Positions 10,847-59,180 of a DNA stretch of 60,000 bases are shown here, one piece after another. The notes beneath the pieces were generated by a model. That model saw only the letters and a list, made by a program, of their open reading frames with translations, had not been told where the DNA came from and ran no database searches. A program made the translations under genes and the position numbers. Source of the stretch: Malacoraja senta. Lineage: Eukaryota. Location of the stretch: positions 13,084,001 through 13,144,000 of the forward strand of contig CM075989.1 in NCBI GenBank assembly GCA_038087875.1, read 5' to 3'. The number at the start of each line of letters is the position of its first letter. The stretch's first letter is position 1.

Positions 10847-13800
10847 TTTTTTAAAATTTCAAAATAGACTTTATTCAGGTAATAAATATATACAACATAT
10901 ACAATACATGAAATGTGCAAAAAATTATTTCAAAATAGAGGCTATACAAATTATTCAATACAGTCTACATACATTGCTCAAATTTCACAAATTTATCCCC
11001 CACCCTTCCACTCATGTAGCCCACTGGAATGGGATCCCATCCCTTATTTTGAGGGGCGTCTCCATCACACTCTGCCCCCATGTCCAGCAGCGGAAGGACC
11101 CTAGACTATGGTCCTCCCCCACCGAGCCTTGGCGTTGGCTGCACCGAGCTTCAGTGTGTCCCTCAGCAAGTACTCCTGCAGTCTGCAGCGGGCCAGTCGG
11201 CAACATTTCCTGACATCTCGCTCCGCTGGGTGGTGAACAGCGCTCAGGCAGACCAAAGAGCATCTTTCACCGAGTTGATGACTTTCCAGCAGCATTCGAT
11301 GTCAGTCTCTGAATGCATCCCTGGGAACAGTCTGTAAATCACAGAGTCCTCTGTGACGGAGCTGTTCGGAATAAACCGTTATAGGGACCCTTGCAGACCT
11401 TTCCAGACTCTCTTTGCAAATCCACACTCTGCCAAGAGGTGGGCAACTGTCTCCTCTCCATAGCAGGTACACAAAAATGCTGGAGAAACTCAGCGGGTGC
11501 AGCAGCATCTATGGAGCGAAGGAAATAGGCAACGTTTCGGGCCGAATCCCTTCTTCAGACTGATAGGGGGTGGGGAGAAGAAAGGAAAAAGGCGGAGGAG
11601 GAGCCCGAGGGCTGAGGGATGAGAGGAGACAACCAGAGGGCTGAGGAAGGGGAGGAGACAGCAAGGGCTAGCAAAATTGGGAGAATTCAATGTTCATGCC
11701 CCCAAGCGGAATATGAGGTGCATTTCCTCCAATTTCCGGTGTTGCTCGCTGTGGCCATGGAGGAGACCCAGGACAGAGAGGTCAGATACGGAATGGGAGG
11801 GGGAGTTGAAGTGCTGAGCCACCGGGAGGTCAGGTTGGTTATTGCGGACCGACCGGAGGTGTTCGGCGAAACGATCGCCAAGCCTCCGCTTGGTCTCACC
11901 GATGTAGATTAGCTGACATCTAGAGCAGCGGATGCAATAGATGAGGTTGGAGGAGATGCAGGTGAACCTCTGTCGCACCTGGAACGACTGCTTGGGTCCT
12001 TGAATGGAGTCGAGGGGGGAGGTGAATGGACAAGTGTTGCATCTCTTGCGGTTGCAAGGGAAAGTACCCGGGGAGGGGGTGGTACGGGAGGGAAGGGAAG
12101 AATTGACAAAGGAGTTACGGATGGAGCGGTCTTTGCGGAAGGCAGACATGGGGGGAGATGGGAAGATGTGGCGAGTGGTGGGGTCACGTTGGAGGTGGCG
12201 AAACTGACGGAGGATCACTTGTTGTATGTGACGGCTGGTGGGGTGAAAGGTGAGGACTAGCGGGACTCTGCCCTTGTTGTGAGTGGGGGGATGGGGAGAG
12301 AGAGCAGTGTTGCGGGGTATGGCAGAGACCCTGGTGCGAGCCTCATCCATGGTGGAGGAGGGGAAGCCCCGTTCCCTGAAGAATGAGGACATTTCGGATG
12401 CCCTGGTGTGGAACGCCTCATCCTGGGAGCAAATGCGGCGTAGACAGAGGAATTGGGAGTGGGGGATGGAGTCCTTACAGGAAGCAGGGTGGGAAGAAGT
12501 GTAGTCCAGATAGCCATGGGAGTCAGTAGGTTTGTAGTGGATGTCAGTCAGTAGTCTATCACCTGCGATGGACATAGTGAGGTCAAGGAATGGCAGGGAA
12601 GTGTCGGAAATGGTCCAGGTGTATTTGAGTGCCAGATGGAAGTTGGTGGTGAAGCGGATGAAGTCAGTCAGTTGTGTGTGGGTGCAGGAGGTGGCACCAA
12701 AGCAGTCATCGATGTAGCGGAGGTAGAGGTCGGGGATGGGGCCCTGGTAGGTATTGAACAAGGATTGTTCTACGTACCCGACAAAGAGGCAGGCGTAGCT
12801 GGGGCCCATGCGTGTGCCCATAGCTGTGCCTTGTATTTGGAGGAAATGGGAGGAATCAAATGAGAAGTTATTGAGGGTAAGGACTAGCTCCGCTAGGCGG
12901 AGGAGGGTGTCAGTGGCCGGGTATAGGTTGCTTCTCTGGTTGAGGAAGAACCGGAGGGCTTTGAGACCATCCTGGTGGGGGATGGAGGTGTAGAGTGACT
13001 GGACGTCCATGGTGAAGATGAGGGGGTGAGGGCCTAGAGAGTGGAATGCGCGGAGACGACGGAGAGTGTCGGGTGTCTTGAACATAGGTAGGGAGTGATT
13101 TAACCAAGGGGGATAGGATGGAGTCAAGGTAGGTGGAGATGAGTTCGGTGGGGCACGAACAGGCAGAGACAATGGGTCTACCGGGACAGTCAGGTTTGTG
13201 GATTTTGGGGAGAAGGTAAAATCGGGCCGTGCGGGGCTGGGGAACGATGAGGTTGGAGGCTCAGTCGGGCAGGGCGTGGGAGAGGATGAAGTCGGTGATG
13301 GTGCTGGAGATGGTGGCCTGGTGCTCGTCAGTGGGGTCATGGTCCAGGGGTAAGTAGGAGGAGGTGTCCGAGAGTTGGCGCGTGGCCTCAGCTTTGTAGA
13401 GATCGACGCGCCAGACTACCACGGCGCCTCCCTTGTCGGCGGGTTTGATAACCTGGACCATACAACAAGTGATCCTCCATCAGTTTCGCCACCTCCAACG
13501 TGACCCCACCACTCGCCACATCTTCCCATCTCCCCCCATGTCTGCCTTCCGCAAAGACCGATCCCTCCGTAACTCCCTTGTCAATTCTTCACTTCCCTCC
13601 CATACCACCCCCTCCCCGGGTACTTTCCCTTGCAACCGCAAGAGATGCAACACTTGTCCATTCACCGCCCCCCTCGACTCCATTCAAGGACCCAAGCAGT
13701 CGTTCCAGGTGCAACAGAGGTTCACCTGCATCTCCTCCAACCTCATCTATTGCATCCGCTGCTCTAGATGTCAGCTGATCTACATCGGTGAGACCAAGCG

Positions 13801-14620
13801 GAGGCTTGACGATCGTTTCGCCGAACACCTCCGGTCGGTCCGCAATAACCAACCTGACCTTCCGGTGGCTCAGCACTTCAACTCCCCCTCCCATTCCGTA
13901 TCTGATCTCTCTGTCCTGGGTCTCCTCCATGGCCACAGCGAGCAACACTGGAAATTGGAGGAAATGCACCTCATATTCCGCTTGGGCAGTCTACATCCTG
14001 GGGGCATGAACATTGAATTCTCCCAATTTTGCTAGCCCTTGCTGTTTCCTCCCCTTCATCAGCCCTCTGGTTGTCTCCTCCCATCCCTCAGCCCTCGGGC
14101 TCCTCCTCCGCATTTTTCCTTTCTTCTCCCCACCCCCTATCAGTCTGAGGAAGGGTTTCGGCCCGAAACGTTGCCTATTTCCTTCGCTCCATAGATGCTG
14201 CTGCACCCGCTGAGTTTCTCCAGCATTTTTGTGTACCTTCGATTTTCCAGCATCTGCAGTTCCTTCTTTAACACTCCTCTCCATAGCAGCTGTCCCAAGG
14301 GCAGCGTACACTGGTAGTGAGGTTCCGACGGTGCAGGAAGGATCCGACTGGGAGGGTTCCCCTCACCGCCAGCCAAGCCAGGTCTTGGTGCTTGTTGGTG
14401 AGTTCTGGCGATGAGGCATTTTGTCAGACAAGCTGGGCAGTCTGCTCTGGGAACCACGCCACCGGATCCATCGAGTCCTTTCCCTTCAGTGCCTGCAGGA
14501 CGTTCCGTGCTGACCACTGCCCGATGGACTTGTGGTCAAAGCTGTTGGTCTGGAAGAACCTTTCCACAAATGACAGATAGGGCGGCAATGTCTAGCTGAC
14601 TGGCACATTGCGTGGCATTT
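10847..14620 (-). mobile_element. Tx1/L1-clade LINE 3' fragment (10847-11466 plus 14290-14620), split by the Penelope insertion
   Basis: The rejoined minus strand reads ...HQDLAWLAVRGTLPV...RCPWDSCYGEETVAHLLAECGFAKRVW (ORF2 C-terminal CCHC knuckle). AATAAA and an A-rich tail lie near 10850-10875. Confidence 0.85.
11467..14273. mobile_element. Penelope-like element (Neptune-like), inverted two-arm insertion: minus arm about 11467-13453 (RT plus GIY-YIG, frameshifted), plus arm about 13459-14273 (GIY-YIG plus terminus)
   Basis: [40 protein letters not shown], linker CNRKRCNTC, LIYCIRC..C...YIGET...R..EH. TSD CTCCTCTCCATAGCAG at 11451-11466 and 14274-14289. Confidence 0.95.
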
Positions 14621-15674
14621 GTGCTAGGCCCATCCTTTGCAACGTACACTAAGAGGGAAATCAGGAGGGCAAAAAGCAGTAATGAGATGGATCTGGCAGG
14701 CAAGGTAAGGGATTCTACAGATAGATTAGGAATTTAAGGGTGGCTCGGGAAAGAATAGATGCCAATAAAGATTAACAATTCTTTGCCTTTAGGTGTGACA
14801 ATGTTTTGTAATGGGTGTGACGATGAGCTATAATTTGAAAGTTAATTAAAGGCTTGTGGTAGGAAATGGGTGTGTTATGCTGCAGGTGTCCAAGTCTTGA
14901 CACTTTGCCAAGCATCACCAGTGGGCATTGCCCCCTTCCAAAAACTTTGATTTATTGTCAACTTTCAAAGGCTTTGATTTGTCAATTTCATTTTTTATGT
15001 TGGAAGCACATGCCTCAAATTTCAGAAATTTAATACGTTTACTTTTCCCGTATATGATCTGTCATCGAGGTACCAGTGCAGCCAATCCCAAACCCCGAAA
15101 CTAGTAGATCATAAACACAAGCAGATGTTAGTTCAATCCTGGGGCTGATTAGAAGGCAGCGTCTGACAGTTTTTGCAGCTTTCCTGGGTTGGGGAGGCGG
15201 TGCTCAAATAAGGATTTGCAAGGCAGAAGTGGCATTCAGCACAACTGTTCAATGTTAACTTTTATGGGCTGCATGAACAAATTCCCACTGTGCCTCTCAT
15301 CTAACGTGAAGATATGAAGCTTGGAAGTTTCTCATAACAAATAAGGGTGGGAATAGCTTGTCTGACCCTTTGAGCCTGCTCTATTATTCATCAAGATTAT
15401 GACTGAGAATTTCTTCCAGCACCATCTCCATATCCATAGATTCCCTAGAAGTGAGAATTAAGATACTATGTCCAGAAATCTATTCATTTCTGTCAGAAAT
15501 GAACAGAATACCTGAGTTTCTACAGATGTCTGAAGAAGAGAATGCCAAAAGTTCAACGTCCTCTTAAGTGAATTCTCCTCATCTCGATCCTAAATCCCAC
15601 CCTTCATTCTCATACTGGATCCCTTGATGGAAATGCAAAGTGCTAGGTTAGGTAATATCTGGGGAAGGAATGGA

Positions 15675-15955
15675 TAAGATATTTAGAACTGAGATGAGGA
15701 ACAACTTTTTCACACAGAAAGTTGTGAATTTGTGGAATTCTCTGCCTCAGAAGGCAGTGGAGTCCGATTCACTGGATGCATTCAAAAGAGAGTTAGATAG
15801 AGCTCTTGGGGCTAGCGAAATCAAGGGGTATGGGGAGAAGGCAGGAACGGGGTACTGATTGTGGATGATCAGCCATGATCACATTGAATGGCAGTGCAGG
15901 CTCGAAGGGCCGAATGGCCTACTCCTGCCCCTATTGCCTATGTATCTATGTATGT
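15675..15955 (+). mobile_element. CR1 3' fragment
   Basis: FRTEMRNNFFTQKVVNLWNSLP...GYGEKAGTGY plus the 3' UTR. Confidence 0.88.
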
Positions 15956-18629: not shown

Positions 18630-19180
18630 CAAAAGCAGCTCAGAAATATAATGTTGAGGCTCTATAAGGCGCTGGTCAGGCTGCATTTGGAGTACTGTGA
18701 GCAAATTTGGTCCCCATATCTGAGGAAGGGTGTGCTGGCTCTGAAGAGGGTCCAGAGGAGGTTTACAAGAATGATTCCAGGAATGAATGGGTTAGCATAT
18801 GATGAGCTTTTGGCAGCACTGGGCCCCTACTCACTGGAGTTTAGAAAGTTGAGGGGGGACCTCATTGAAACTTACAGAATAATGAAAGGCATAGATAGAG
18901 TGGATGTGGAAAGGATATCTCCACTGGTGGGAGAGTCTGGGACCAGAGGTCATTGCCTCAGAAGAATTAAAGGGTGCTCTTTTAGAAAGGAGGTAAGGAG
19001 GAACAGGATGCTGTGGAGCCCAAGTCAGTGGATATTTTTAAGGCAGAGATAGACAGATTCCTGATTATGGATATGGGGAGAAGGCAGGAAAATGGCATTA
19101 GGAGGCAGAGATCAGCCATGATTGAATTGCAGAGTGGACTCGATGGGCCAAATGGCCTAATTCTACTCCTATAACTTGTG
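18630..19180 (+). mobile_element. CR1 3' fragment
   Basis: LYKALVRLHLEYC...LRGDLIETY plus the 3' UTR. Confidence 0.88.
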
Positions 19181-20823
19181 AAACGTCACCCATTCCTTCT
19201 CTTCAGAGATGCTGCCTGCCCGCTGAGTTACTCCAGCATTTTGTGTCTATCTTGGGTTTAAACCACCAGCATCTGCAGTTTATTTGTGCACAATGGGCTG
19301 CCTGTACTTGATTATCTGGCTGGATGTTTGATTTGTTCTTTTCACACCTTTCATTCCTTTGTTCTTTGTACCTTTTTCACATCTCCCCTGACTCTCAATC
19401 TGAAAAAGGGTCTCGATTTGAAACGTCACCTATTCCTTTTCTCCAGAGATGCTGTCAGACTCACTGAGTTACTCCAGCATTTTGTGAGTATCTTCAGTGT
19501 AAACCACCATTTGCGGTTCTTTCCTACACACTGTAGACATAACTGTGGATTTGGAGGTACATGATGTTCATGTTTCTCTTACCTCTCCCCTATATCCACA
19601 TCTCCCTCGTCTCCTCTGCAGCACAGAGGAAATATGGAGCTTTCACCCCGGGAGAGGGGCGAGGGCAAGGTGAACACTGTGCATCCCCAAATCCAGAGTT
19701 AGGTCTATGTGTCCATCTGGGCAGGCAGTGTATACTCGCACCTGACTATGCTGCACAGATCACTCTAATTTTGATCGTATTTAATGACTTTAAGGATATC
19801 CGAGAGGTTACTGTACAAATCCTCAAGCGGTGAAGTGGTGTTAAGATTCACTGCGGAATTGTACAGATCTCAGACATCTTTGGTAGTGACGCGGAACATT
19901 ATTAGGCCAGCCTGCTCCAGGAGCCTGCAGTAAGATGGTGATAATCTCATCTTGGCCTCAGTACCACCTTTCCACCATCGGCTGTTTGTACTCTTTGGCT
20001 CCTCAGTAGCTTAAAATGTGAGGAGAATAACAACATGGATGTAGAAATAAGGAACTGCAGAAGCTGGTTACGAAACAAAAAGACACAGAGTGCTAGAGTA
20101 ACTCAGAGGGTTAGGCAGCATCTATGGAGAACATGGATAGGTGGTGTTTCACGCCAGGACTATTCTTCACAGCAAAATGAGATAAATATGGAATGTGTAA
20201 ATGGATGGTTGATGGTTGGCATGCACATGACAGACCAAAGGTAGACAAAAAAGCTGCAGAAACTCAGCGGGTAAGGCAGCATCTATGGAGAGAAGTAATA
20301 GGTGACGTTTTGGGTCGAGACCCTTCTTCAGACACAAATGGTCTCTTCCTGTGCACACTCACTCCGTCTTCCTGTCTCTCTTTCTCGCTCTCTCTCTTAG
20401 ACTCTAAATGTCCCTTGATCTCTGCTGAGAACAGATTAAATATCTTGTCAACCCTCTGGGGAAGGGAGAATCCAAAAGGTTCACACCCTTCTGACAGAAT
20501 AAACGTGAGGATATCAACATCAGTGGGATAAACAGAATGACGGCGCGTTATTTGAAAGGTGATAAAATGAGGATTATTGATGTAAATACAGACTTGTGTT
20601 TCTTTGTTAGTGATAGCTGAAGGAAACTAATGATTGCAGCAAGCCGTTAAGAAGGCAAATGGTCTGCTATTATTTACGGCCAATTGATTCGAGGATCAAG
20701 GATGTGTCATAATTATACAGGGCCCTGGTTAAATAGAATATACCTCTCACAGTCGGCAGGCAGCAAGCTTCACTATAATTATAGGCACAAAATGCTGAAG
20801 TAACTCAACTGGACAGGCAACAT

Positions 20824-23098
20824 GTTGTTAAAGAAGGAACTGCAGATGCTGGAAAATCGAAGGTACACAAAAATGCTGGAGAAACTCAGCGGGTGCAGCA
20901 GCATCTATGGAGCGAAGGAAACAGGCAACGTTTCGGGCCGAAACCCTTCTTCAGACTGATAGGGGGTGGGGAGAAGAAAGGAAAAAAGGCGGAGGAGGAG
21001 CCCGAGGGCTGGGGGAGGGGAGGAGACAACCAGAGGGCTGATGAAGGGGAGGGGACAGCAAGGGCTAGCAGAATTGGGAGAATTCAATGTTCAAGCCCCC
21101 AGGATGTAGACTGCCCAAGCGGAATATGAGGTGCATTTCCTCCAATTTCCGGTGTTGCTCACTGTGGCCATGGAGGAGACCCAGGACAGAGAGGTCAGAT
21201 ACGGAATGGGAGGGGGAGTTGAAGTGCTGAGCCACCGGGTGGTCAGGTTGGTTATTGCGGACCGACCGGAGGTGTTCGGCGAAACGATCGGCAAGCCTCC
21301 GCTTGGTCTCACCGATGTAGATCAGCTGGCATCTAGAGCAGCGGATGCAATAGATGAGGTTGGAGGAGATGCAGGTGAACCTCTGTCGCACCTGGAACGA
21401 CTGCTTAGGTCCTTGAATTGAGTCGAGGGGGGAGGTGAAGGGACAAGTGTTGCATCTCTTGCGGTTGCAAGGGAAAGTACCCCGGGGAGGGGGTGGTACG
21501 GGAGGGAAGGGAAGAATTGACAAGGGAGTTACGGAGGGAGCGGTCTTTGCGGAAGGCAGACATGGGGGGAGATGGGAAGATGTGGCGAGTGGTGGGGTCA
21601 CGTTGGAGGTGGCGAAACTGACGGAGGATCACTTGTTGTATGTGATGGCTGGTGGGGTGAAAGGTGAGGACTAGGGGGACTCTGCCCTTGTTGTGAGTGT
21701 GGGGATGGGGAGAGAGAGCAGTGTTGCGGGGTATGGCAGAGACCCTGGTGCGAGCCTCATCTATGGTGGAGGAGGGGAACCCCCGTTTTCTGAAAAATGA
21801 GGACATTTCGGATGCCTGGTGTGGAACGCCTCATCCTGGGAGCAGATGCGGCGTAGACGGAGGAATTGGGAGTGGGGGATGGAGTCCTTACAGGAAGCAG
21901 GGTGGGAAGAAGTGTAGTCCAGATAGCCATGGGAGTCGGTAGTCCATTTCCGACACTTCCCTACCATTCCTTGACCTCACTATCTCCATCGCAGGTGATA
22001 GACTTCTTACCGACATCCACTACAAACCTACCGACTCCCATGGCTATCTGGACTACACTTCTTCCCACCCTGCTTCCTGTAAGGACTCCATCCCCCACTC
22101 CCAATTCCTTCGTCTACGCCGCATCTGCTCCCAGGATGAGGCGTTCCACACCAGGGCATCCGAAATGTCCTCATTTTTCAGGGAACGGGGGTTCCCCTCC
22201 TCCACCATAGATGAGGCTCGCACCAGGGTCTCTGCCATACCCCGCAACACTGCTCTCTCTCCCCATCCTCCCACTCACAACAAGGGCAGAGTCCCCCTAG
22301 TCCTCACCTTTCACCCCACCAGCCGTCACATACAACAAGTGATCCTCCGTCAGTTTCGCCACCTCCAACGTGACCCCACCACTCGCCACATCTTCCCATC
22401 TCCCCCCATGTCTGCCTTCCGCAAAGACCGCTCCCTCCGTAACTCCCTTGTCAATTCTTCCCTTCCCTCCCGTACCACCCCCTCCCCGGGTACTTTCCCT
22501 TGCAACCGCAAGAGATGCAACACTTGTCCCTTCACCTCCCCCCTCGACTCCATTCAAGGACCTAAGCAGTCGTTCCAGGTGCGACAGAGGTTCACCTGCA
22601 TCTCCTCCAACCTCATCTATTGCATCCGCTGCTCTAGTTGCCAGCTGATCTACATCGGTGAGACCAAGCGGAGGCTCGGCGATCGTTTCGCCGAACACCT
22701 CCGGTCGGTCCTCAATAACCAACCTGACCTCCCGGTGGCTCAGCACTTCAACTCCCCCTCCCATTCCGTATCTGACCTCTCTGTCCTGGGTCTCCTCCAT
22801 GGCCACAGCGAGCAACACCGGAAATTGGAGGAAATGCACCTCAGGCAGTCTACATCCTGGGGTCTTGAACATTGAATTCTCCCAAATCTGCTAGCCCTTG
22901 CTGTCCCCTCCCCTTCATCAGCCCTCTGGTTGTCTCCTCCCCTCCCTCAGCCCTCGGGCTCCTCCTCCGCCTTTTTTCCTTTCTTCTCCCCACCCCCTAT
23001 CAGTCTGAAGAAGGGTTTCGGCCCGAAACGTTGCCTGTTTCCTTCGCTCCATAGATGCTGCTGCACCCGCTGAGTTTCTCCAGCATTTTTGTGTACCT
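20824..23098. mobile_element. Penelope-like element, second inverted insertion (minus arm 20826-21942, plus arm 21944-23098)
   Basis: Same family: RT C-terminal region plus GIY-YIG on both arms. TSD TGGACAGGCAACAT at 20810-20823 and 23099-23112. Confidence 0.95.
23003..23035 (+). ncRNA. Minimal type-I hammerhead motif of the Penelope terminus (representative copy)
   Basis: CUGAAGA-A-GGGU(UUCG)GCCC-GAAA-C-GUU, with a loopless palindromic stem III (ACGU). Repeated in many terminal copies in the window. Confidence 0.75.
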
Positions 23099-23502
23099 TG
23101 GACAGGCAACATATCTGGGGAGAAGGAATGGGTGACGTTTTGGGGCGAGACCCTTCTTCAGACGAGTCAGAAGACAGGGAAATGAGAGATATAGACAGTG
23201 ACTTAGAGAGATATAGAACAAATGAAAAAAAAGTATATTCTCTGTCCATCCCTCTTCTCTGCCTGGCCTCTCTTTTCTCAGCACCAATATAAAGTTAATG
23301 ACCTGAGGGTTTAACTTTGATTCTACCTTTACAGATGTTTTACTTTCTCAGTTTCCGTCTTGCATTTTCTGCTGTTTCATTGAGTTCCGTTATTACCACC
23401 TCAAGGGATTCCACTTGCTACAGTAATGGAATTCAAGCCAGCCACCCGCTAGTGTATCCTGAGGTTGGGTTCTTGGCTTTAGTCTGTGCACGTTCAGTGT
23501 GA

Positions 23503-46654
<23,152 letters not shown>

Positions 46655-47091
46655 AAGATATATGGTGAATGGACTCACCCACTGATACTGGGGTTTTGCA
46701 CCATTGACACCATCATTAACATCAGCATTTCATACTCAGTTTGTGAATAGCCGGATCTAATCTTACCCCTAGTCTGGTTCAGTAAAAGAAACTGTGGAAC
46801 ACTGAAGTCCAAACCCTTCTTTATTTGTATACACTGCAGGGACGGTCTCGGGTCCACTCGCGCAAGCCCACAATAGCCTCGTGCAAACAGAACAGAAGGA
46901 AGACAACCAACACACCCAAACGAATTACATACACTTTTATACCCCTAAACGAAGGCGGGGACATCATAACTGGTTTCATCATTGGTTATGCATCATAACC
47001 AATCGCTCAAAACAATTTGTCACAACAGACATAAGTGCCCCTGGTTAGTTGACATTGAGGCATGTAGCCTTGCTCTTCTAGGATACTAGTA

Positions 47092-47505
47092 TGTGTAGGA
47101 AAGAATTGTGGATGCTGGTTTAAACTGAAGATAGACATAAAATGCTGGAGTAACTCAACGGGACAGGCAGTATCTCTAGAGAGAAGGAATGGGACAAAGG
47201 GAAAGGAGATCAAGAAAAATGTAGTACTCCCCCCTTCCCAGTTCTCCCACCAGTCCTACTTTCTCTGACTACAGTTTATCTGTTTCCTATGTTGTTACCT
47301 TCTTCCAGCTAACAATGATCTATTTTACATTTCCCTTGATCCCCATTCCCTTTCTCCTGTTTGCACACCTTACACTTCCTTATCTATGTATCTCCCTCTC
47401 CCGTGACTTCAGTCTGAAGAAGGGTCTCAACCCGAAAGGTCACCCATTCCTTCTCTCCAGAGATGCTGCCTCTCCTGCTGAGTTGCTCCAGCATTTTGTG
47501 TCTAT
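47092..47505. mobile_element. Older Penelope-derived short inverted element
   Basis: Long terminus on the left, short terminus on the right, hammerhead-like motif at about 47412-47444. Confidence 0.75.
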
Positions 47506-47881
47506 TTATGGATAGTATGGATATTCTTTTAAAGCAGATGGGGACTTCAGAGTTTAGTAATGAGAGGCTAAAGTCTGTGAAAACTTCAGCCTGCTATTCT
47601 GGGCATGTTTTGAGCATGTGGCCAGATACCCTCTAAGAGTCGGATACTTTCCAAGGGTACACCCTTGTGATGGATCTTCTGACATTGGTGACTGAGATCA
47701 CATTGTCAACAGGGAATGTGGTGGGAAACGCTCAGGCAGGTAGGCAGTAGCCATGGAGAAATAGTTAATTTGTAGGTAATAGTCATGGTGTGCGTGGTAC
47801 AGCTTAGAAACGGGCCCTTTGGCCCACCACATCCATGCCAACCTTTTTGCCCATCCACACTAATCCAATTCGCCTGCAGAA

Positions 47882-48250
47882 AGGGCCTGTCCCACTTTCC
47901 CGAGTTATTCACGAATTCTCCTGAGTTATTCACGAATTCTCCCGAGTTTTCAAACTCGCAGAATGTTCGTAACGAGTCCGTAGGAGTCTGTGGATATATC
48001 GTAGCGGCTCGTTATGCCAGCCGTAGGTACTCGGGGCTATTTTTTTACTCATGGACATTTTTCATCATGCTGGAAAAAAAGTCCCGACTTACCGGATGCC
48101 CCGAGTACCTACGGCTGGCATAACGAGCCGCTACGATATATCCACGGATTCCTACGGCCTCCTACGGATTCTGCGAGTTTGAAAACTCAGGAGAATTCGT
48201 GAATAACCTAGGATAATTCGTGAATAACTCGGGAAAGTTGGTCAGGCCCT
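47882..48250. mobile_element. PIF/Harbinger-type MITE, long palindromic copy
   Basis: Same TIR as 25726-25906; shared internal GGACATTTTTCATCA; extended inverted arms. Confidence 0.78.
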
Positions 48251-48351
48251 TTAGGATGATATCCTTTTATGTCTTGCCTTTTTAAGGTGTTTATCTAAAC
48301 ATCTCTTAAACGTAGTGATTGTAGCTGATTCTGCATTTCCTCTTCCAAATC

Positions 48352-49200: not shown

Positions 49201-49741
49201 GAAGGGTCTCAAACCAAAATGTAGACTGTCCATTTCTCTCCACAGACGAGGTTCGGTAGTTTGTTTTTCTTCCCATTTCCAACATCTGCAGGGTTTTGTG
49301 TCTCCCGATAAAATCGGCAGTCTGTGTACAAGACTTTCCCCTCTGATCTCCTTTACGATGATTCCTCCCTCCCTCCCACCCACCAACCATAAGCTATGCC
49401 CATCTGTCCTGGATCCTTCTGGGAATTGGGGAGCGAAAGGATCTGCACTAAAGTGTGGACTAGTACCAGGTGGTTCATTACGACCTCGCATGGACAATTA
49501 GGGATAGACAATAATTACTGCCTTCTATCTATGCTCACATCTGATGAATAGAAATGTTGATATCAGATGGAAATAAAGGTGCACAAAATGCTGGAGTAAC
49601 TCAGCAGATCAGGCAGCATCTCTAGAAAACATGCATAGTTGGCGAATCATGTCGGGACACTTCGGACCAGTATCTTTGCTCCGTCTGCATTCGGTGGCGC
49701 TTCCTCTGCCTAAAATTGAGCAACATTGAGCAAGTGTAGGT

Positions 49742-50300
49742 ACACAAAAATGCTGGAGAAACTCAGCGGGTGCAGCAGCATCTATGGAGCGAAGGAAATA
49801 GGTAACGTTTCGGGCCGAAACCCTTCTTCAGACTGATAGGGGGTGGGGAGAAGAAAGGAAAAAAGGAAAAAGGCGGAGGCGGAGCCCGAGGGCCGGGGGA
49901 GGGGAGGAGACAACCGGATGGCTGATGAAGGGGAGGGGACAGCAAGGGCTAGCAGAATTGGGAGAATTCAATGTTCAAGCCCCCAGGATGTAGACTGCCC
50001 AAGCGGAATATGAGGTGCATTTCCTCCAATTTACGGTGTTGCTCGCTGTGGCCATGGAGGAGACCCAGGACAGAGAGGTCAGATACGGAATGGGAGGGGG
50101 AGTTGAAGTGCTGAGCCACCGGGAGGTCAGGTTGGTTATTGTGGACCGACCGGAGGTGTTCGGCGAAACGATCGCCAAGCCTTCGCTTGGTCTCACCGAT
50201 GTAGATCAGCTGGCATCTAGAGCAGCGGATGCAATAGATGAGGTTGGAGGAGATGCAGGTGAACCTCTGTCGCACCTGGAACGACTGCATGGGTCCTTGA
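49742..50300 (-). mobile_element. Penelope-like element, single truncated arm (GIY-YIG plus terminus), abutting the SPPL2A promoter
   Basis: ORF 49949..50290 is the GIY-YIG domain. Flanking repeat ATTGAGCAAG(T/C)GTAGGT at 49725-49741 and 50301-50317. Confidence 0.93.
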
Positions 50301-50317
50301 ATTGAGCAAGCGTAGGT

Positions 50318-50830
50318 GGTCCTTCAGGCCGCCAGGTGGCGCTATGGTCGCATACGTCACCCTGCCCCGCTGATGCTGGACGCCAGCAACGTGATGACGC
50401 CACAACTGCTGTAAACAGGAAGCATCGCTGCTCAGGCGCCGCAATGCGCATGCGCGCGGAGACGGTGTTGGCCATGGCGACGGTTCGGGTCCGGCCGGTG
50501 GCCGCGATCTTGTTGCTGCTGCTCGGCGTGTTCCAGGTGCCCAGGGAGAGAGGCCGCTAGCGGTATCTGTGGGCTGCCTATTCGCTCTGGTCGACAGGGA
50601 GCCCGTAGGCCGTCGGTGTCCGGTCCCCACACCACCGTCCCCCCTCCCGGTTCCTCCTCCCTTCGATTCTCTCCCCCACACCCCCCCGTGTCCGGGCCGT
50701 GATAACCCCCTGGCCCCAACCGCCCTCCCCACCACCCCTGTCACTTGCATCCCCGTCTCGGGCCTCGGGCACAGGCCCGCCCGGGACCCGCAGCTTCATC
50801 GCGGGTAGCGGTCGCTTCAGGTCAGTCCCC
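50318..50830 (+). promoter_or_regulatory. SPPL2A: SPPL2A CpG-island promoter
   Basis: CpG-dense; CRE-like TACGTCAC near 50353, ETS-like CAGGAAG near 50416, NRF1 palindrome TGCGCATGCGC at 50445-50455. Confidence 0.8.
50474..50536 (+). CDS. SPPL2A: SPPL2A exon 1 (signal peptide)
   Basis: Kozak context GCCATGG; MATVRVRPVAAILLLLLGVFQ; weak donor CAG|gtgccc, in phase with exon 2. Confidence 0.8.
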
Positions 50831-53800
50831 TCGCCCTGAATGTTTCCTCCTTCTGTCCAATGCAGGCCGAGGCCCAGGAGGGCATCCTCCGCGCGTCCAG
50901 CAAAGAGACCTCTCTCAAAATCCGGGAGTACTGCATTATTTTCAACGCACAGTGGATGTCGCTACCCAGTACTCTGACCAACGCCGTGAGTAACAGACAA
51001 CTAAAGGATTGGCTGAAAAGCAAAAAGGGAAATAAAAAACCGCGCCCTGCACCTTTTCTGTACTTTTCACAACTTGCCTCTATGTTGAGACATTGGCTTC
51101 TGTCTTGTTGTTCCTTGACTCTAACCCCGAGCTAACCTAACTTAATCAGGTGACCGTCCCTTACATAAATCATAGGAACAGAATTGGGTCATTCTTAATG
51201 GTTCTTGATGTTGTCAATTGTCTTTTGGTTTAGGGATTGCATTATAGGCAGACCCTTATCAGACATTGTGTGTAGGAACTGCAGGTGCTGATTTATACCG
51301 GAGATAGACACAGAATGCTGGAGTAACTCAGGGGCCAGGCAGCATCTCTGGAGAAAAAGGATAGGTGACGTTTGGGTTTCCTCATTTTTTAAATTTCTCT
51401 CCATGCTAATTTCTGTTGCCAGTCTTGTCCAATGGGGTGAGATGATGTTAGAAAATGCTGCTGTCTCTGAAATTTCTATCTAGCTCCTAAACAGGTCTCA
51501 TCCTTGTCTGTAACTACATCTCCATCAATCATGTTCAAACTTGGGCTGATGCAGAGTTGTATGTAATGAGAAAGCAAAACAAAATATTGGCCATAAAGGG
51601 AACACATTTTAAATTGTCATTTTTTGAGCAGGGTGTTTTTTGTTTGTCATGTAAACGGGTCCTTTGGCTCAACATGTCCATACTGACCAAAATGTCCTAT
51701 TTGGCTTTGTTAGGCCCATATCCCTCTAAACCTTTCCTATGCATGTATCTATCCAAATTGCATTTAAATGTTCTTATTCTACCCGCCTCATCTACTTGGT
51801 CTGGCAGTTTGTTCCATGTACCCACTGTGTGTAAAGGATGTCTGTCCATTTCCTATTAAATCTTTTCCCTCTCACCTTAAAGCTATGCACTCTAGTTCTT
51901 GATTTCCAATTCCCATATCCTGGGTAAAAGACTCTGGGCATTCACCCTATCTATTCCCCTCACAATTTTACACATTCTGCAAGATTACATTTTTCTTTGA
52001 GCAGGTTTGTGTTGATTTGTTACAGACACTGAAGATAAGTGAAAACTTTGCTCAGTGACATGGTCTCTAATACAGGGTGCCGTGTTTGTCCTTGTATTGA
52101 AAGGCAAGCAGGGCTGGGTTGCTCACTCCAGTGTTGATGCATGCTTGATGCATTAATACAAACTGAACTACACATGTAAAGCTCTGCTCAATGCCAATCC
52201 TATAGTTTGCTTCTTGCTGCTACTACTGGCACTGTCTTCTGTGATTTTGAAGGTTCCTTCTTGGGTCTCTTTCACTATTGATGCTTCTTTATCTCTGTAG
52301 ACTAATTACCAATTACAAGACCTGACCAGCACTGAACTCTGCAATTCATCAGATGTGCCTGCTGAGGGTATAAAGGACAAGCTTGTGGTTGTGATGAGAG
52401 GGAACTGTACCTTCATTGAAAAAGCACGGGTTGCTGTGGAGAATCATGCCAAAGCTCTGTTGATTGCCTCTACAAGTCGTATAGTAAGTCGGCATTTGAA
52501 TAATTCCACATCTCTATTTTTGTTTATTCACTAAAATTGCCAGCGTGTCATAATGTGCATTTTTAGTTTATCTAAAATACTGTGGCTAAATGGTCCTGTT
52601 ATCGAACATCAATGGATATTTTCTTGATATTTAATAATAGGGACTAAAACTCCCCCCTTCCAACCCCTTCTAACCAGGTGTTAAAGAAGGAACTGCAGAT
52701 GCTGGGAAATCGAAGGTACACAAAAATGCTGGAGAAACTCAGCGGGTGCAGCAGCATCTATGGAGCGAAGGAAATAGGCAACGTTTCGGGCCGAAACCCT
52801 TCTTCAGACTGCCGGTCTGAAGAAGGGTTTCGGCCCGAAACGTTGCCTATTTCCTTCGCTCCATAGATGCTGCTGCACCCGCTGAGTTTCTTCAGCATTT
52901 TTGTGTACCTTCTAACCAGGAGTGACGTGTTGTAATTCTCCTTTTGAGAAAGCTACAAATCGGAGTAGGTGTAGGTCACAGCCTATAGAAATCTGTTACT
53001 CTGTTTTGAATGTGATGAGTGAGTCAGTCTCCACAGCCCTCCAGAGAATCACAAAGGGTCATCAGTGTGAAGAAATTTCACCTTAATTTCAGTTTTATTT
53101 GGCATATACTTCACTGGGAGACTGTCACCCTGGTTTTTGACTCCATGTCGGGGGACCGTCCTTCCTACTTTCACTGTTGAACCCCCTCAGAATTTAGCAG
53201 ATGTTAACGACTACATCCCATGGACCCCAGAGAGAAAGCCCAGCCCAGCAACATCTCCTCTCTGGCAGATGTGCCATCCCGGGGACCAGCCGGTGAAGCT
53301 TGGCTGCATCCTTCTAAAATATATCCTGTTCAGATAAGGAAAACAAAATTATTCTCAATATTCGGGTCTGGAAACATTTTGTTAGGAGGGGAAATCTACA
53401 GTGGGGATGGTTTTTATTTGCTGTTATTAAATTAACTTTGAAGAATGTCTAGTTTGTTCAAAACTTAACCGTTCCTCAAATTCATTTACTGCAAAGCACT
53501 ATGCTCATCAATGATCTTTTTTTTCAGATTCCTTCTCTGGGTAATGCATCTGAATACGAGCAGCTACAAATTCCAGTGGCCTTAATCAGCTATGCTGATG
53601 TACTGTCCATGAAAAAGGTAATTTAATTCTTGCCTTTCTGCTGCTCATTGTGCCTGGACCCCACTGTCGCCTCTTCTCTCTGCATTCTGCTGTACTGCCG
53701 CATGGCTGTTGCATGCTCCACCTGACTTTCCATGGACCTGGCAGCAAATGAGGTTCAAACTAATGTAAGCATTTATTTTGATTGATGAAAGAAACAGGCC

Positions 53801-56800
53801 CTTTGGCTCACTGAATCCATGCCAACCATCAATCACCCGTTCACACTAGTTCTATGTTATCTCACTTGTGCCTGCATCCACTCCCTACACATTAGGGTCA
53901 ATTTAGAGGCCAATTGACCTTCAACGTTGTAAGACGATAAGATATAGGAGCTGAAAGGCCTTTCGGCCCATCGAGTCTACTCCGCCATTCGATCATGGCT
54001 GATCTATTTTTCCCTCATCCCCATTCTGCCTTCTCCCAGTAACATCTGACATCCTTATTAATCAAGAATCTATTAATCTCAACTCTTAAAATACCCAATG
54101 ACTTGGCTTCCCAAGCCATCTATGGCAATGAATTCCACAGATTCACCACCCTCTGGCTAAATAAACACTTCCTCATAACCATTCTGAAGGTACATCCTTT
54201 ATCCCGAGGCTGTGCCCTCTGGTCCTGGACACCGCAAATTAGTGGAAGCATCCTTTCAATGTCAGCTGCATCAAGGTATTTCATTATCCAATAGGTTTCA
54301 ATGAGTTCCCCCTGATCCTTCTAAACCCAAATGAGTACAGGCCCAAAGCATTAAAACGCTCTTCATTTGTTAATGCAATCATCCCCGGGATCATTCTCAT
54401 AATAGTTGTAGAGCTTGGACTGACAAGCACAGGCTTTGGTTGGAAGTATTGTCGTGGATTTGTTTCCTGGTGGCTCACTTCAAAGGGACAGGTATGGCAA
54501 AAAAAGGCGGCCTGTTGTACTGTATGGGTGCAGGAGGAGATGTGTGATTCTGAAGCAGAACGTGCAAATCCTAATCGCTCCTTGTATAAATACTTTTCGT
54601 CTCTTTTCCTCTGATTCCTTTGACACTTGGTTTAAATTTGTCTGCCTCTAAACACAAGGAATTGGGCGTAGACCTCTTGGCCCCTCAAGCCTGCCCTGCC
54701 ATTCACTGTGAACGTGCCTGATCTCCCCTTGCCCTCGACTATTCTGTGCCAGTTTTGCAAAGCCCTCGACTCCCTGATTTTTCTTTCAAAAACATTACGT
54801 ACCGCCTTTTTAAATACCCCCAATGATCCAGCTTTCATAACTCGGGGACAGAGAATTGCAGAAATTCACCATATTCTGTACGATCAAATTCCTATCCTCT
54901 GTGTTAAATGCCTGCCTCCTTGTCTGAGACTCTCCCTTTACAACTCTTCTTCATCACTAAATTTACATGGTCGTGCTGTCTTAGGATCTTATGCTGCAAT
55001 AGGGTCACCTCTCATTCTTCTATTACAGATTCAATTTCTTTATCATGTGTTAGAACAAGCCCCACAGACCAGGAATTAGCCCAGTCAATCTTTTGGACCT
55101 AGCATATCTAGTCTTCAATGAGGGAGCAGAAAATGCTCAGTGCTTCATATGCCATGCCAACTCCCTGGGTATGATTATAAGAATACTTCCCTTTTTATAA
55201 ACTCCAACCTTCAAGCAACAAGGCCAACATGACATGTGCTGCCTAAACTCCTGTATCTGCCTGCTAACCTATTGTGATTCACGCACAAGACCACCTAGAT
55301 CCCTCTGTACCTATGTGTAAGATGTTGCCTTTTCATTCCTCTTACCAAGTGCATGAATTTTAAAGATAGACACAAAATGCTGGAGTGACTCAGAGGGTAA
55401 GGCAGCTTCCCTGGAGAAAATGGACAGGGGACATTTCAGGTCGGAACACCTCTTCAGTCTGAAGAATGTTTCCAACCCGAAAGGTTGCCTATCCATATTC
55501 TCCAGGGATGCTGCCTGACCTGTTGTGTTACTCCAGCATTTTGTGTCTATCTTTGGTATAAGCCAACATCAGCAGTTCCTTGTTATCAAATGAATATTAA
55601 ATGTAGTTTGCCAAGTTTGTGCCTATTCAGTCACTCGTAGCAGTGTCCAAATATCCTCCTTGCAAGATACCCACCCATCCACCTTAGTGTTTTCAGCAAA
55701 CTTTGATCCTGTGTATTCAGCCTTTTCCTTCAGGTCACTTGTATAAATCATGAATAATTTGGGTTGTCTTCAGGCTGAAGGGATTTGACTGGGGGATTAC
55801 CCCAAGATCAGTTCTTGGTCCCATTTTCCCGATATCAGTGTGATGGCCAGCCTTCGATCCGTGGTAAAGTCTTCGTCTCCCCAGTTCTGCGAACTCTCAG
55901 CTTGTGTACCAGCCCTTAATGTAGCATGTTGGCAAATGCCTTATGGCAATATGTGAAAAATATTCCAAATCACTGACAAAACAACAGCAAACCCAATTCA
56001 GATTATTCAGAAAATATTAAACAATACTGATCTAAACTAGGAGAACTCAATGCTTTTACATTTACGAATTGTGGTAATTTTTATCTTTGGATCAGTCACC
56101 TGCCTGGAGAAGGCATTGGCTGTTGGAATCGTATCCTTGATGTACCACTTATTAGGTATTATTTTGGTTGTAGGTGCTGGGGAATCAAATTTCAGCCACA
56201 CTCTACTCTCCTCCCATGCCCTCTATGGACTACAGCATCCTGATTGTCTTCTTTATTGCTGTTGGAACTGTTGCCCTTGGAAGTTACTGGAGTGGGATAG
56301 AAGAACCGGAAAGGTAAATCGGATCTGTTGAGTGGTATTGCTTTTTAAGCTTGGCACGTGTTCTTATCAAAGTTAACATAGGGCAGTAAGGTGGCGCAGC
56401 GGTAGAGTTGCTGCCTTGCAGCGTCAGAGACCCAGGTTCAATCCTGATTACAGGTGCTGCCTGTACGGAGTTTATATGTTCTCCCCGTGACCACATGGGT
56501 TTTCCCCGGGATGCTCTGGTTTCCTCCCACACTCCAAAGATGAACATGCTTGTAGGTTAATTGGCTTCAGTAAAGATTGTAAATTGTCCCTGGTGTATAG
56601 GATAGTGCTAGTTTACGGGGATCGCTGAGGACTGTCTCTACACTGTATCCCTAAACTTAGGTCAGATATTTTCTTTTCTACTGAGTGAGCTTCAGGTTAA
56701 GGAGGCTGATTTGCTTGTCATCTCTTTTGCTCTCTCTCGCTTCTAATCATAGAACAATTGACAAAATTGTATGGGGTTGCTTCTTTAGTCTTTGTGGGTT

Positions 56801-59180
56801 CTTTTCCCACAACTTGAATCTTTTATTTTAATTTAGAGGTACAGCATGGAAACATGCCCTTCAGCCCACCGAGTCCATGCTAACCATCGCTCACTCGTTC
56901 ACACTAGTTCTAGGTTATCCCGCTTTCTCATCCACTCCCTACACATTAGTGGCAATTTTGCAAAAGCCAATTAATATATAAACCCGTGTTAAAGAAGGAA
57001 CTGCAGATGCTGGAAAATCGAAGGTACACAAAAATGCTGGAGAAACTCAGCGGGTGCAGCAGCATCTATGGAGCGAAGGAAATAGGTAACGTTTCGGGCT
57101 TCATATATAAACCTGCATGTCTTTGGGACGTGGCAGGAAACCCACATGGTCACAGCTCTGGACAGACAGCATCTGTGGGCAGAATCGAACCTGGGTGCTG
57201 TGAGACAGCTGCTCTACAAGCTGCAAACAGTTGGGATATGCTGTACAACTAACTGCCAGTGGCCCAAATTCCTCGTCACCAGTTTGTTCCTGCAGTCCTA
57301 TTTCTGTATTTTAGCAGCAGTCTAATTGGTCATGTCGTTGTTCTGAGCTTAACAGCTTTACTATAAGATGATAGATTGTACTTTGAAAAATTTAACAAGT
57401 GATTGTTTTTAATCTTATTTCTTTTGGGGAAAAGTGAAAATTTATCAGCTGAATCCAGATCAAGGACCCGGAGAGGGAGTAAGAATGAGGACACGGCAAA
57501 CATCTTGACTCCAATCACCGTCCTATTTTTTGTCATCATTGTTATCGTGATGATTGTACTGTTGTACTTCTTCTACAAGTGGTTAGGTGAGAATGTTGTG
57601 CATTCAGACATTTCCGTTTATATAATAAATCCCAGAGTAAGGAAGGTATAGTACTTGCACTAGAGCCAAGAAATCAACTTGGAGCATGGTATAAAAGTGC
57701 TATTGCTTAACCGACTGTTAGAAAAGTAGTAAAGAATTGATGAACAGTGAAGTATCATTTACTTTGGGAAGGTCACTCTCTGCAAGTTAATGCAATCCCA
57801 GTGTAATATGCAAGTTGCACTAAGTTTGTTAAATGTTGTGTTTAGCTTTTATCAGTGTGGGCTCTTATTCACAAGGATAGTTGTAAATTGGGAAAAGTTC
57901 AAAGTTAGTACTGCAGACTAAACAACAGATGTTTAGTTACCCCAAAGAGATTATTCGTTTTACGTTTTACTCGAGGTTGGAAGTCTTTTCAAACAAATAT
58001 GTGGAAATGGTCTTAAGCACAGAACTCTGAGCAGCTTAAAAATGCAGCAGTACATAGAATGGATGTGTGGAAAACTTACCTCTGCTTGTTTCCCTTAGTG
58101 TACGTGGTCATTGCCATCTTCAGCGTAGCTTCAACAATCAGTCTCTACAATTGTTTGTCGGCGCTAGTGAGGAGAATCCCATATTGCAAATGCAGGTAAG
58201 CTGCCTTTAAACCTTTCATAGTAGTTGAACATTCTCTTTCAGAAGCAGAAGGACATTGAAGTATCATTTACATCAGTTACAAATGTGCTTGAGTACAGCT
58301 TTCAGTCGCTGCACTATAGTACGTTAGTGCTTGTCTGCGAGCCGTTGTACACAACAGAGTATCGCGTGGTTGTGGCCTACAGATATGCTTTCCGTAACTT
58401 GTCTGTGCCCAGAGTTCAGAGAGCAGCATCTTGCTGCGATTCACCAACATTCACTTGGATCCTATGCCGCCTTGGACCTGACACAGCATTGTCGATGCAT
58501 GGTTTTTGATAGGATTAAAGTGGACGATGGTTAAAAATAAGATGCATTCCTTTGCAACTGCAGTTTGTACAGTGTTTTTTTGTAGATTAGTAAAATTCGA
58601 AACAAATTTAAATAATTGAGACACAGTGGCACAGCTGCTGCCTCTCAGCGACAGAGACCTGGGTTTGATCATGACCATGGCTGCTGTCTAAGTGAAGTTT
58701 GCACATTCTCCCTGTGTGCATGGATAACACCAGGTGCTCCGGTTTCCTCCCATATCCCAAAGATGTGTGAATTTGTAATCCTTTGTAAATTGAACCTAGT
58801 TTGTACGGAGTGGATGCGAAAGTGGAATAATGTAGAACTAGCATGAATAGGTGATAGCATGATGGTTGGCATGGAGATAGATGGCAGGCCAAATGCCCTG
58901 TTTCCAGGTTGTATCTCTAAACTAAGCTGAAATTGTTAAATCTTTCTGTGTCAGCTGACAATCTGGGAGTGGGCTTCTATTCTCAGGCTTGGGAATGTGT
59001 TTCCCAGGCAAAGTCCACCCCCAACACACACCACCTTCAGCCTCCATGGACATGATGGCCTTTACCTTTTTGTTTCAGCTTCATGTGCAGTAGCAGAAGG
59101 ATTGAAGTTCGTTTGGTGATGCTCGCATTGTTCTGTATGTCATTGGCTGCAGTGTGGGTTGTGTTTCGAAATAATGACAG
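50474..59180 (+). CDS. SPPL2A: Signal peptide peptidase-like 2A, exons 1-8, 3'-partial: join(50474..50536,50866..50985,52301..52483,53528..53617,56174..56313,57435..57586,58099..58195,59079..59180)
   Basis: Signal peptide, QEGILRAS...YCIIFN, PA domain (VVVMRGNCTFIEKA), and TM segments IAVGTVALGSYWSG, LLYFFYKWLVYVVIAIF and VWVVFRNND. All junctions are GT-AG and in phase. QEGIL and YKWL favour 2A over 2B. Confidence 0.93.
50866..50985 (+). CDS. SPPL2A: SPPL2A exon 2
   Basis: tgcag|GCC; AEAQEGILRAS...LPSTLTNA; donor gtgagt. Confidence 0.93.
52301..52483 (+). CDS. SPPL2A: SPPL2A exon 3 (PA domain)
   Basis: ctgtag|ACT; TNYQLQDLTSTELCNSSDVP...RGNCTFIEKARVA...ALLIASTSRI; donor gtaagt. Confidence 0.94.
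52679..52910. mobile_element. Palindromic mini Penelope insertion (termini only)
   Basis: Two inverted terminal segments meeting near 52812. TSD CCTTCTAACCAGG at 52666-52678 and 52908-52920. Confidence 0.92.
53528..53617 (+). CDS. SPPL2A: SPPL2A exon 4
   Basis: tttcag|ATT; IPSLGNASEYEQLQIPVALISYADVLSMKK; donor gtaatt. Confidence 0.92.
53935..54400 (-). mobile_element. CR1 3' fragment
   Basis: Reverse complement of the CR1 RT C-terminus and 3' UTR. Similar fragments lie at about 4810-4968, 10475-10632, 29905-30230, 30840-31160 and 51650-51970. Confidence 0.8.
55362..55585. mobile_element. Older Penelope-derived palindromic element
   Basis: Inverted arms with a tail on the right; degenerate TSD ATGAA(T/A)TTAAA-like on both sides. 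Confidence 0.75.
56174..56313 (+). CDS. SPPL2A: SPPL2A exon 5
   Basis: ttgtag|GTG; VLGNQISATLYSPP...IAVGTVALGSYWSG; donor gtaaat. Confidence 0.93.
56987..57102 (-). mobile_element. Penelope terminal fragment (long end) inserted into a V-SINE
   Basis: TGTTAAAGAAGGAACTGCAG... terminus. TSD ATATATAAACC(C/T)G at 56974-56986 and 57103-57115. Confidence 0.85.
57435..57586 (+). CDS. SPPL2A: SPPL2A exon 6
   Basis: aaag|T, the acceptor that keeps the frame; ENLSAES...LTPITVLFFV...LLYFFYKWL; donor gtgaga. Confidence 0.9.
58099..58195 (+). CDS. SPPL2A: SPPL2A exon 7
   Basis: ccttag|TG; VYVVIAIFSVASTISLYNCLSALVRRIPYCKC; donor gtaagc. Confidence 0.94.
59079..59180 (+). CDS. SPPL2A: SPPL2A exon 8
   Basis: tttcag|C; FMCSSRRIEVRLVMLALFCMSLAAVWVVFRNND; donor gtgagt. 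Confidence 0.93.

What the first reader, a model, noticed from the sequence alone, without database searches (positions are those of the whole stretch)
11451..57115. Young Penelope family with two fixed termini about 35 nt apart, inverted arms and long TSDs
Seen: five insertions use only two end-points. The long end is TGTTAAAGAAGGAACTGCAGATGCTGGAAAATCGA-AGGTACAC; the short end starts at AGGTACAC. The three inverted insertions (11467-14273, 20824-23098, 52679-52910; 2.8, 2.3 and 0.23 kb) each have one long and one short end facing outward. 49742-50300 has only the short end and 56987-57102 only the long end. All five have 13-17-bp flanking duplications, and the short end shares 1-5 nt of microhomology with the target. 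Established: Penelope-like elements carry a 30-40-nt terminal tail and often form inverted structures, but clean TSDs are not generally typical of them. Inference: staggered nicks about 14 bp apart each prime reverse transcription, at two different fixed RNA positions, and the two cDNAs join in the middle.
Basis: partly seen in the sequence, partly recalled or inferred. Interest (0 to 1): 0.78.

Follow-up and report, generated by a model that had tools for sequence, protein, structure and literature searches.

The report
Penelope retroelement insertions with two start-sites
These are truncated copies of a Penelope-like jumping gene in a shark-or-ray genome that show the already described 'tail' and mirror-image insertion pattern, with the added detail that each mirror-image insertion seems to use each of the element's two copying start points once.

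Summary
Five insertions of one Neptune-type Penelope-like element (PLE) carry 13-17-bp target-site duplications (TSDs; 3 of 1500 random controls reach 13). The three inverted ones each pair a tailed (long) with an untailed (short) end. Corrections: the short end is a 5-nt window, not one base; sister arms differ by 1.8-2.7%; no intact ORF is present. The core interpretation is already in print: two reverse-transcription start sites bounding the tail, with both target strands cut and extended (PMC11167929), and TSD-flanked inverted PLEs with a one-sided tail (PMC3846280). Added here: sister arms share a source (8 of 8 informative sites); older subfamilies follow the long+short rule (7 of 9 pairs automatically, 9 of 9 after two manual reassignments); short ends have 1-5 nt microhomology (P about 0.003), whereas the in vitro report found no homology; the short arm usually reaches at least as far as the long arm. 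Best reading: both nicks prime on one RNA, short site first. Orthologous empty sites could not be read. New member of a known kind; modest interest.

The parts
11451..11466 (.). Insertion A, left TSD copy (16 bp); its last 2 nt are the short-end microhomology
11467..13452 (-). Insertion A, short-ended (untailed) arm; 5'-truncated RT + CX4CxxC linker + GIY-YIG ORF remnant (11676-13452), frameshifted near 13060-13120, with a 16-nt deletion near the C-terminus
13451..13461 (.). Insertion A, inversion junction: 10-11-nt filler matching the element at two other places (12610-12620, 13339-13348)
13459..14273 (+). Insertion A, long-ended (tailed) arm; tail 14239-14273
14145..14169 (+). Hammerhead-like core (CUGA..A, stem II, GAAA) in the terminal repeat; recognised by eye, no Rfam hammerhead match
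   Evidence: sequence; Rfam negative
14274..14289 (.). Insertion A, right TSD copy
20810..20825 (.). Insertion B, left TSD copy (16 bp with 1 mismatch, or 14 exact), inside an older PLE end
20826..21942 (-). Insertion B, long-ended arm; tail 20826-20860
21944..23098 (+). Insertion B, short-ended arm; reaches 85 nt further into the element than the long arm
23099..23114 (.). Insertion B, right TSD copy
49725..50317 (-). Insertion D: single short-ended arm 49742-50300; TSD 49725-49741/50301-50317; 4-nt microhomology at the short end; the element match runs 6 nt into the right TSD copy at the truncated end
52666..52920 (.). Insertion C: long arm 52679-52811 (sense -), 3-nt centre, short arm 52815-52910 (sense +); TSD 52666-52678/52908-52920; 5-nt microhomology
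56974..57115 (-). Insertion E: single long-ended arm 56987-57102 inside an older short repeat; TSD 56974-56986/57103-57115
3880..4084 (.). Older inverted pair, short + long, 13-bp TSD with 1 mismatch
23847..24633 (.). Older inverted pair, short + long; the long arm's tail is displaced about 550 bp by a later insertion; 13-bp TSD with 1 mismatch
   Evidence: called S+S automatically, reassigned by hand
31375..31600 (.). Older inverted pair, short + long; no clear TSD
36742..36960 (.). Older inverted pair, long + short; no TSD found
   Evidence: minus arm missed by the script
37063..37206 (+). Single long-ended copy of a related subfamily, 12-bp exact TSD
45393..45556 (-). Single long-ended copy of a sister subfamily; no TSD found
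47087..47519 (.). Older inverted pair, long + short; only 7 nt of exact flanking duplication
55353..55601 (.). Older inverted pair, short + long, 12-bp TSD with 1 mismatch, palindromic centre

Best explanation
These are 5'-truncated insertions of an endonuclease-bearing Penelope-like retrotransposon of the Neptune/Nematis type in a cartilaginous fish. The GIY-YIG nuclease nicks the two target strands about 13-17 nt apart, which gives the TSD (TSD shown; nicking inferred). Reverse transcription can start at two places near the end of the terminal-repeat RNA, 35-39 nt apart; the stretch between them is the known 'tail' (two end classes shown; that they are start sites is taken from PMC11167929). 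At the short site the target's 3' end pairs with 1-5 RNA bases (microhomology shown; role in priming inferred). Two-armed insertions arise when both nicks prime, most likely on one RNA: the short site is used first, the tail is then the only free start, and the second cDNA copies the tail and follows by displacing the first. Both cDNAs stop early and are joined head to head (inferred). If the long site is used first it covers the short site and a long-only copy results; if the second nick is not primed a short-only copy results.
For: RVT_1 and GIY-YIG hits (weak E-values 3e-5 to 1e-3); best named homologues are shark and ray proteins at 55-69% identity; CX4CxxC linker matches the CX2-5CxxC motif given for Neptune and Nematis. 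TSDs exceed chance. Empty sites rebuilt with one TSD copy align to paralogous host repeats without a TSD-sized gap for B and E, while keeping both copies adds 13-16 gap positions; hundreds of host-repeat contigs carry the E target once (table 7). 8 of 8 informative sites group arms by insertion, 0 by end type, apart from two misaligned junction columns. Long+short pairing: 7 of 9 pairs by script, with 16 long and 16 short among 32 arms; 9 of 9 after two manual reassignments. The short arm reaches further than the long arm in 5 of 9 pairs, equally far within 1 nt in 3, and less far (7 nt) in 1. In contigs of four organisms, 12 of the 14 listed joints entering element E land at 56987-56994 (5) or 57017-57027 (7). 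In vitro precedent: PMC11167929.
Against: No direct test of priming order or of one versus two RNAs. The 5:1 arm-length asymmetry is not significant (sign test about 0.2, my arithmetic). The unedited pairing count, 7 of 9, has P about 0.09; the 9 of 9 figure (P=0.002) rests on two manual calls. Only 3 of 6 older pairs keep a clear TSD. Shared arm variants could also come from two transcripts of one source locus or from later gene conversion. PMC11167929 reports initiation without homology to the cleaved DNA and an AT-rich cut preference; these targets are not AT-rich except E, and older short ends show 0-3 nt by eye. One search lists only the best-supported joints (1440 and 788 more not shown). 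A, C and D have no empty-site evidence.
Confidence: 0.5

Rival explanations
1. Fold-back: the short-primed cDNA stops, folds back and copies itself; the second nick primes only a short tailed cDNA, which anneals to that copy and supplies the tail. Both nicks still prime, but most of the long arm is DNA-templated.
For: Predicts short arm at least as long as long arm (8 of 9 within 1 nt), same-source arms and palindromic centres (C, 31472, 55457). Self-priming was proposed for PLE inverted junctions in PMC3846280 (Discussion).
Against: Long-only copies extend well into the element (e.g. 26358-26569), so long-primed cDNAs are not intrinsically short. Junctions of A and B show filler bases rather than clean inverted complementarity. 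One pair has the longer long arm.
Confidence: 0.2
2. Two RNAs on a protein dimer: each protomer holds its own RNA and primes one nick, with an asymmetry that forces one to the long and the other to the short site.
For: PMC11167929 predicts a dimer and sees both strands extended. Needs no strand displacement.
Against: The same paper saw no difference in start site between strands, so long/long and short/short pairs would be expected; none survived review here. Does not predict same-source arms in a family with several source variants (8 of 8 sites), nor the arm-length bias.
Confidence: 0.15
3. The short end is a cut, not a start: one long-primed intermediate is resolved by the element's nuclease, which removes the tail on one side (the view in PMC8557442).
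For: PMC8557442 attributes the tail to endonuclease-mediated resolution (passage). It would also give one tail per insertion.
Against: The short arm is longer than the long arm by 1230 nt in A and 85 nt in B, so it cannot be a trimmed copy of the long cDNA. The short junction moves over 5 nt with target homology. PMC11167929 mapped both positions as start sites.
Confidence: 0.1
4. Each inverted structure is two independent insertions, the second into the first, with chance or pre-existing flanking repeats.
For: PLE ends are dense here (32 arms in 60 kb) and B sits inside an older PLE end.
Against: One TSD spans both arms; arms group by insertion; B's target is single-copy in paralogues.
Confidence: 0.03

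Closest known systems
Poseidon element PAc of Anolis carolinensis (PMC11167929; text parts 1-3 of 4 read, supplement figures not visible)
   Same: RT + C-terminal GIY-YIG; two adjacent start sites that define the tail and genomic ends; both target strands cut and extended; hammerhead motif in the terminal repeat.
   Different: This element has the CX4CxxC linker that Penelope/Poseidon lack. Its short ends show 1-5 nt microhomology, where PAc was reported to start without homology. Targets are not AT-rich. That paper's text does not treat TSD length or pairing of end types in inverted inserts.
Inverted-pLTR Penelope inserts of Adineta vaga (PMC3846280; part 1 of 5, passages, Discussion)
   Same: Head-to-head arms, tail on one of the inverted repeats, TSD around the whole unit, single copy at an empty allele, palindromic junctions.
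   Different: TSDs there are 8-10 bp, here 12-17 bp. That paper favours self-priming on an antisense template.
Neptune and Nematis clades of EN+ PLEs (PMC8557442; passages)
   Same: CX2-5CxxC linker, cysteine pair inside GIY-YIG, DKG motif, 5' truncation, adjacent inverted copy, 30-40-bp tail often at one end only.
   Different: No microsatellite target bias in these five insertions; clade not fixed by a tree.
L1 twin priming (recalled; only search listings seen)
   Same: Second nick primes a second cDNA, giving an inversion inside one TSD.
   Different: As recalled, L1's two segments do not overlap and only one carries the 3' end; here both arms carry the 3' end and overlap almost fully.

Membership tests
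EN+ Penelope-like elements | RT with C-terminal GIY-YIG nuclease in one ORF | tested here: met
   RVT_1 and GIY-YIG in order on one arm (weak scores, one of three GIY-YIG hits above the curated cut-off); 49-64% to residues 291-887 of an 889-aa homologue. The ORF is broken and truncated in every window copy.
EN+ Penelope-like elements | Two cysteines between GIY and YIG (CCHH motif) and DKG motif before the RT core | tested here: met
   LIYCIRCSRCQLIYIG; IKPADKGG; definition from PMC8557442 passages.
EN+ Penelope-like elements | [quoted passage not shown] | tested here: met
   Tail 35-39 nt; three young and six older inverted pairs.
EN+ Penelope-like elements | Hammerhead ribozyme motif in the terminal repeat | tested here: inconclusive
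   Core-like motif with a folded stem II at 14145-14169; no Rfam hammerhead match at gathering or E<=10. PLE hammerheads are described as minimal and atypical (PMC4209133 passages).
EN+ Penelope-like elements | Partial-tandem pseudo-LTR upstream of a full ORF | not testable with these tools
   No full-length copy in the window; no genome held.
Neptune clade | CX2-5CxxC linker between RT and nuclease (shared with Nematis, absent from Penelope/Poseidon) | tested here: met
   CNRKRCNTC; the linker-plus-GIY pattern is in 93 of 120 listed homologues.
Neptune clade | RT phylogeny placing it with Neptune rather than Nematis | not tested
   No labelled reference sequences were available from a tool.
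Neptune clade | Insertion bias for microsatellites (hypothesised trait, PMC8557442) | tested here: not met
   None of the five targets is a microsatellite; E has a short TA run within its TSD. A tendency, not a defining character.

The most novel reading that the evidence does not exclude
PLE integration runs on one RNA with an ordered pair of start sites: a homology-assisted short site used first and the tail end used second with strand displacement. This one rule would explain the one-sided tail, the absence of long/long and short/short pairs, same-source arms and the arm-length bias. The shark and ray genomes, which hold very many such ends, would then be a natural data set that settles how PLE inverted repeats form and shows in vivo microhomology that the in vitro work did not see.
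Probability: 0.35. Interest if true: 0.55.

Novelty: new member of a known kind. Interest (0 to 1): 0.3.

Why it matters
How PLEs build their tandem and inverted insertions is still called unresolved (PMC8557442 passages; PMC11167929 says later steps await validation). This window ties the two in vitro start sites to the two ends of single TSD-bounded events in a different clade, and offers countable predictions (end pairing, arm-length bias, microhomology). The phenomenon itself, tail plus inverted arm plus TSD, is published, so the gain is in mechanism detail rather than a new system.

Tried and rejected
No host genome is held, so no genome-wide table could be made. A 29-nt element motif had 0 matches in viral and metagenome contigs. 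A degenerate 20-mer gave 15 metagenome loci; none extends beyond about 30 nt of similarity, so all 15 were dropped as chance. Orthologous empty site: 4 of 24 listed runs were laid on 55700-58400; three related organisms have flanks about 95-97% identical, but no listed contig bridges E, so this is inconclusive. No RNA holder listed. Tail structure: an 8-bp stem between tail and upstream sequence is kept in 11-13 of 14 copies per pair with no two-sided change, and the fold z-score is -1.28, so it is not evidence of structure. CpG decay explains only 4 of 19 and 3 of 16 arm differences, so arm identity at insertion is not shown. Fold-back of the long-primed cDNA was rejected for A and B because the short arm is longer. 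Rfam gave no hammerhead. Text search of the PMC11167929 supplements gave no hits; its figures S1-S2 could not be seen and may bear on end pairing and TSDs. Earlier-finding look-ups returned nothing.

Full report
Observation. The five insertions exist as described. Their flanking duplications are 16, 16 (or 14), 13, 17 and 13 bp, with 3 mismatches in 75 pairs. Only 3 of 1500 random coordinate pairs gave 13 nt or more under the same tolerance. A, B and C are head-to-head pairs with one tailed and one untailed arm; D is untailed and E tailed. The short end is a window: the first base that must be element-derived lies 35, 37, 38 or 39 nt from the long end, preceded by 1, 2, 5 and 4 nt shared with the target (B, A, C, D). 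The summed 12 nt has P=0.0002 at fixed register and 0.003 under a looser null.

Identity. The longest arm encodes an RT followed by a GIY-YIG nuclease (weak Pfam scores), with the DKG motif, the cysteine pair inside GIY-YIG and a CX4CxxC linker. PMC8557442 (passages) gives that linker for Neptune and Nematis and says Penelope/Poseidon lack it. Of 538 homologues found, 120 were listed; the closest named ones are shark and ray proteins at 55-69%, so the host is inferred to be a cartilaginous fish. No window copy is intact: arm A starts at about residue 291 of an 889-aa homologue and is frameshifted. Sister arms differ at 21/767, 19/1073 and 2/98 sites, so the family is recent only relative to the older subfamilies around it.

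Are the duplications made at insertion? B lies in an older PLE end and E in another short repeat. Removing the insert and one duplicate gives sequences that align to paralogues without a TSD-sized gap; keeping both adds 13-16 gap positions. A, C and D had no paralogous target in the window. Contigs of 4 of 24 listed runs were laid on E. The same-species run matches both flanks and the right junction with no differences. Three relatives have flanks about 95-97% identical, but no listed contig bridges the site, so the orthologous test is inconclusive. Loose-end consensus from about 400 host-repeat contigs per run shows the E target once.

One event or two? Among the four long arms of A and B, 8 of 8 informative sites group the arms by insertion and none by end type, leaving out two misaligned columns at a junction. 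With one TSD around both arms, each structure is one event from one source.

Is the long+short rule general? A script found 32 arms of all ages, 16 tailed and 16 untailed, and 9 adjacent head-to-head pairs, 7 of them long+short (P about 0.09 by my arithmetic). The two exceptions were reviewed by hand. At 23869/24019 the tail lies about 550 bp away behind a later insertion, and the 13-bp TSD sits beyond it. At 36789/37542 the script missed two intervening arms seen; the true partner at 36954 is untailed, though no TSD was found. After review 9 of 9 are long+short (P=0.002). Three of the six older pairs keep 12-13-bp TSDs with one mismatch, one keeps 7 nt and two none; a single older copy has a 12-bp exact TSD. 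In one search, 12 of the 14 listed joints that enter element E from elsewhere land at 56987-56994 or 57017-57027, across four organisms; the other two are internal skips, and 1440 and 788 further joints were not shown. This is a hint, not a census, that the two end classes are genome-wide.

Arm lengths. The untailed arm reaches further into the element in 5 of 9 pairs (by 1230 nt in A and 85 nt in B), equally far within 1 nt in 3, and 7 nt less in 1. This rules out copying of the untailed arm from the tailed cDNA in A and B. The 5:1 split alone is not significant.

Mechanism. Shown: TSD, two end classes, microhomology, one source per insertion, long+short pairing. Taken from PMC11167929 (parts 1-3 of 4 read): a PLE protein cuts and extends both strands, starts at two adjacent internal RNA sites that bound the tail, and is predicted to dimerise. 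Inferred here: nicks 13-17 nt apart; the short site primes first with help from 1-5 paired bases; the tail is then the only free start on the same RNA, and the second cDNA follows by displacement; the two truncated cDNAs join head to head, with 1-11 nt of filler or a palindrome at the centre. Long-first priming would cover the short site and give long-only copies such as E. I put this at 0.5, against fold-back of the short cDNA (0.2), two RNAs on an asymmetric dimer (0.15), nuclease trimming (0.1) and independent insertions (0.03). Sequence from old copies cannot separate the first two.

Comparison with print. PMC3846280 (part 1 of 5, passages and Discussion) describes inverted PLE inserts with 8-10-bp TSDs, a 31-bp tail on one inverted repeat and an empty allele with one TSD copy. 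PMC8557442 (passages) says the 30-40-bp tail is often at one end only. PMC2377424 (passages) gives a 34-37-bp repeat and TSD-flanked copies. Six searches of the held library listed no paper that tabulates end pairing, TSD length or microhomology for a shark or ray PLE; subscription papers and repeat databases are not covered, and the PMC11167929 supplementary figures could not be seen. PMC4209133, PMC9977147 and bioRxiv 10.64898/2026.07.22.740005 were seen as passages only and add context, including hammerhead pairs on opposite strands 100-700 bp apart in Schistosoma. Earlier AI notes of this scan report the same pattern in other shark-like windows; they are leads, not support, but suggest the pattern is common.

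Verdict. Real, correctly observed and mostly explained by published PLE biology. What is added is the longer TSD, the in vivo microhomology at the short site, the same-source arms and the strict-looking pairing, which together suggest a testable one-RNA order of priming. New member of a known kind; interest 0.3.

Noticed in passing
window 52811, 55457, 31472, 5333, 20333, 23953, 59859: Many arms of all ages stop at the upstream edge of the hammerhead-like core; in older subfamilies that edge is a short natural palindrome that could help two cDNAs anneal.
   Followed up: partly
window 13451-13461 and 21944: The filler at A's junction matches the element at two places, and B's short arm ends at one of them (equivalent to 12610-12620); possible pause or jump site.
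   Followed up: partly
window 14274, 52678, 56986, 45392, 20825: The base before the long end is G in 4 of 5 young or sister copies; may be 1-nt homology or a cut preference.
   Followed up: no
window 14196-14273: An ATG opens a 26-codon frame running through the tail to the long end in the young family, as if the repeat held the ORF start; older copies have stops in that frame (by eye).
   Followed up: partly
window 14193-14257: An 8-nt sequence in the tail is complementary to one upstream of the short site, conserved in most of 14 copies but without covariation.
   Followed up: partly
window 24021-24570: A later insertion of about 550 bp sits in the tail region of an older PLE arm; not identified.
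   Followed up: no
window 38467-41770: Long LINE with endonuclease and RT frames of 585 and 525 codons; CR1-like by recall.
   Followed up: no
window 30241-32180 and 34527-34976: Exon-like frames that resemble sulfide:quinone oxidoreductase (name recalled; Pfam gave no family for the one piece tested).
   Followed up: no
window 43765-44270: Diverged tandem repeats of about 65-130 nt with long open frames on both strands.
   Followed up: no
window 56974-57155 in runs X1, X3, X4, X7: The element end draws summed contig depth above ten million against about 30 for unique DNA in all four organisms; not a copy number, but the end is very abundant.
   Followed up: no
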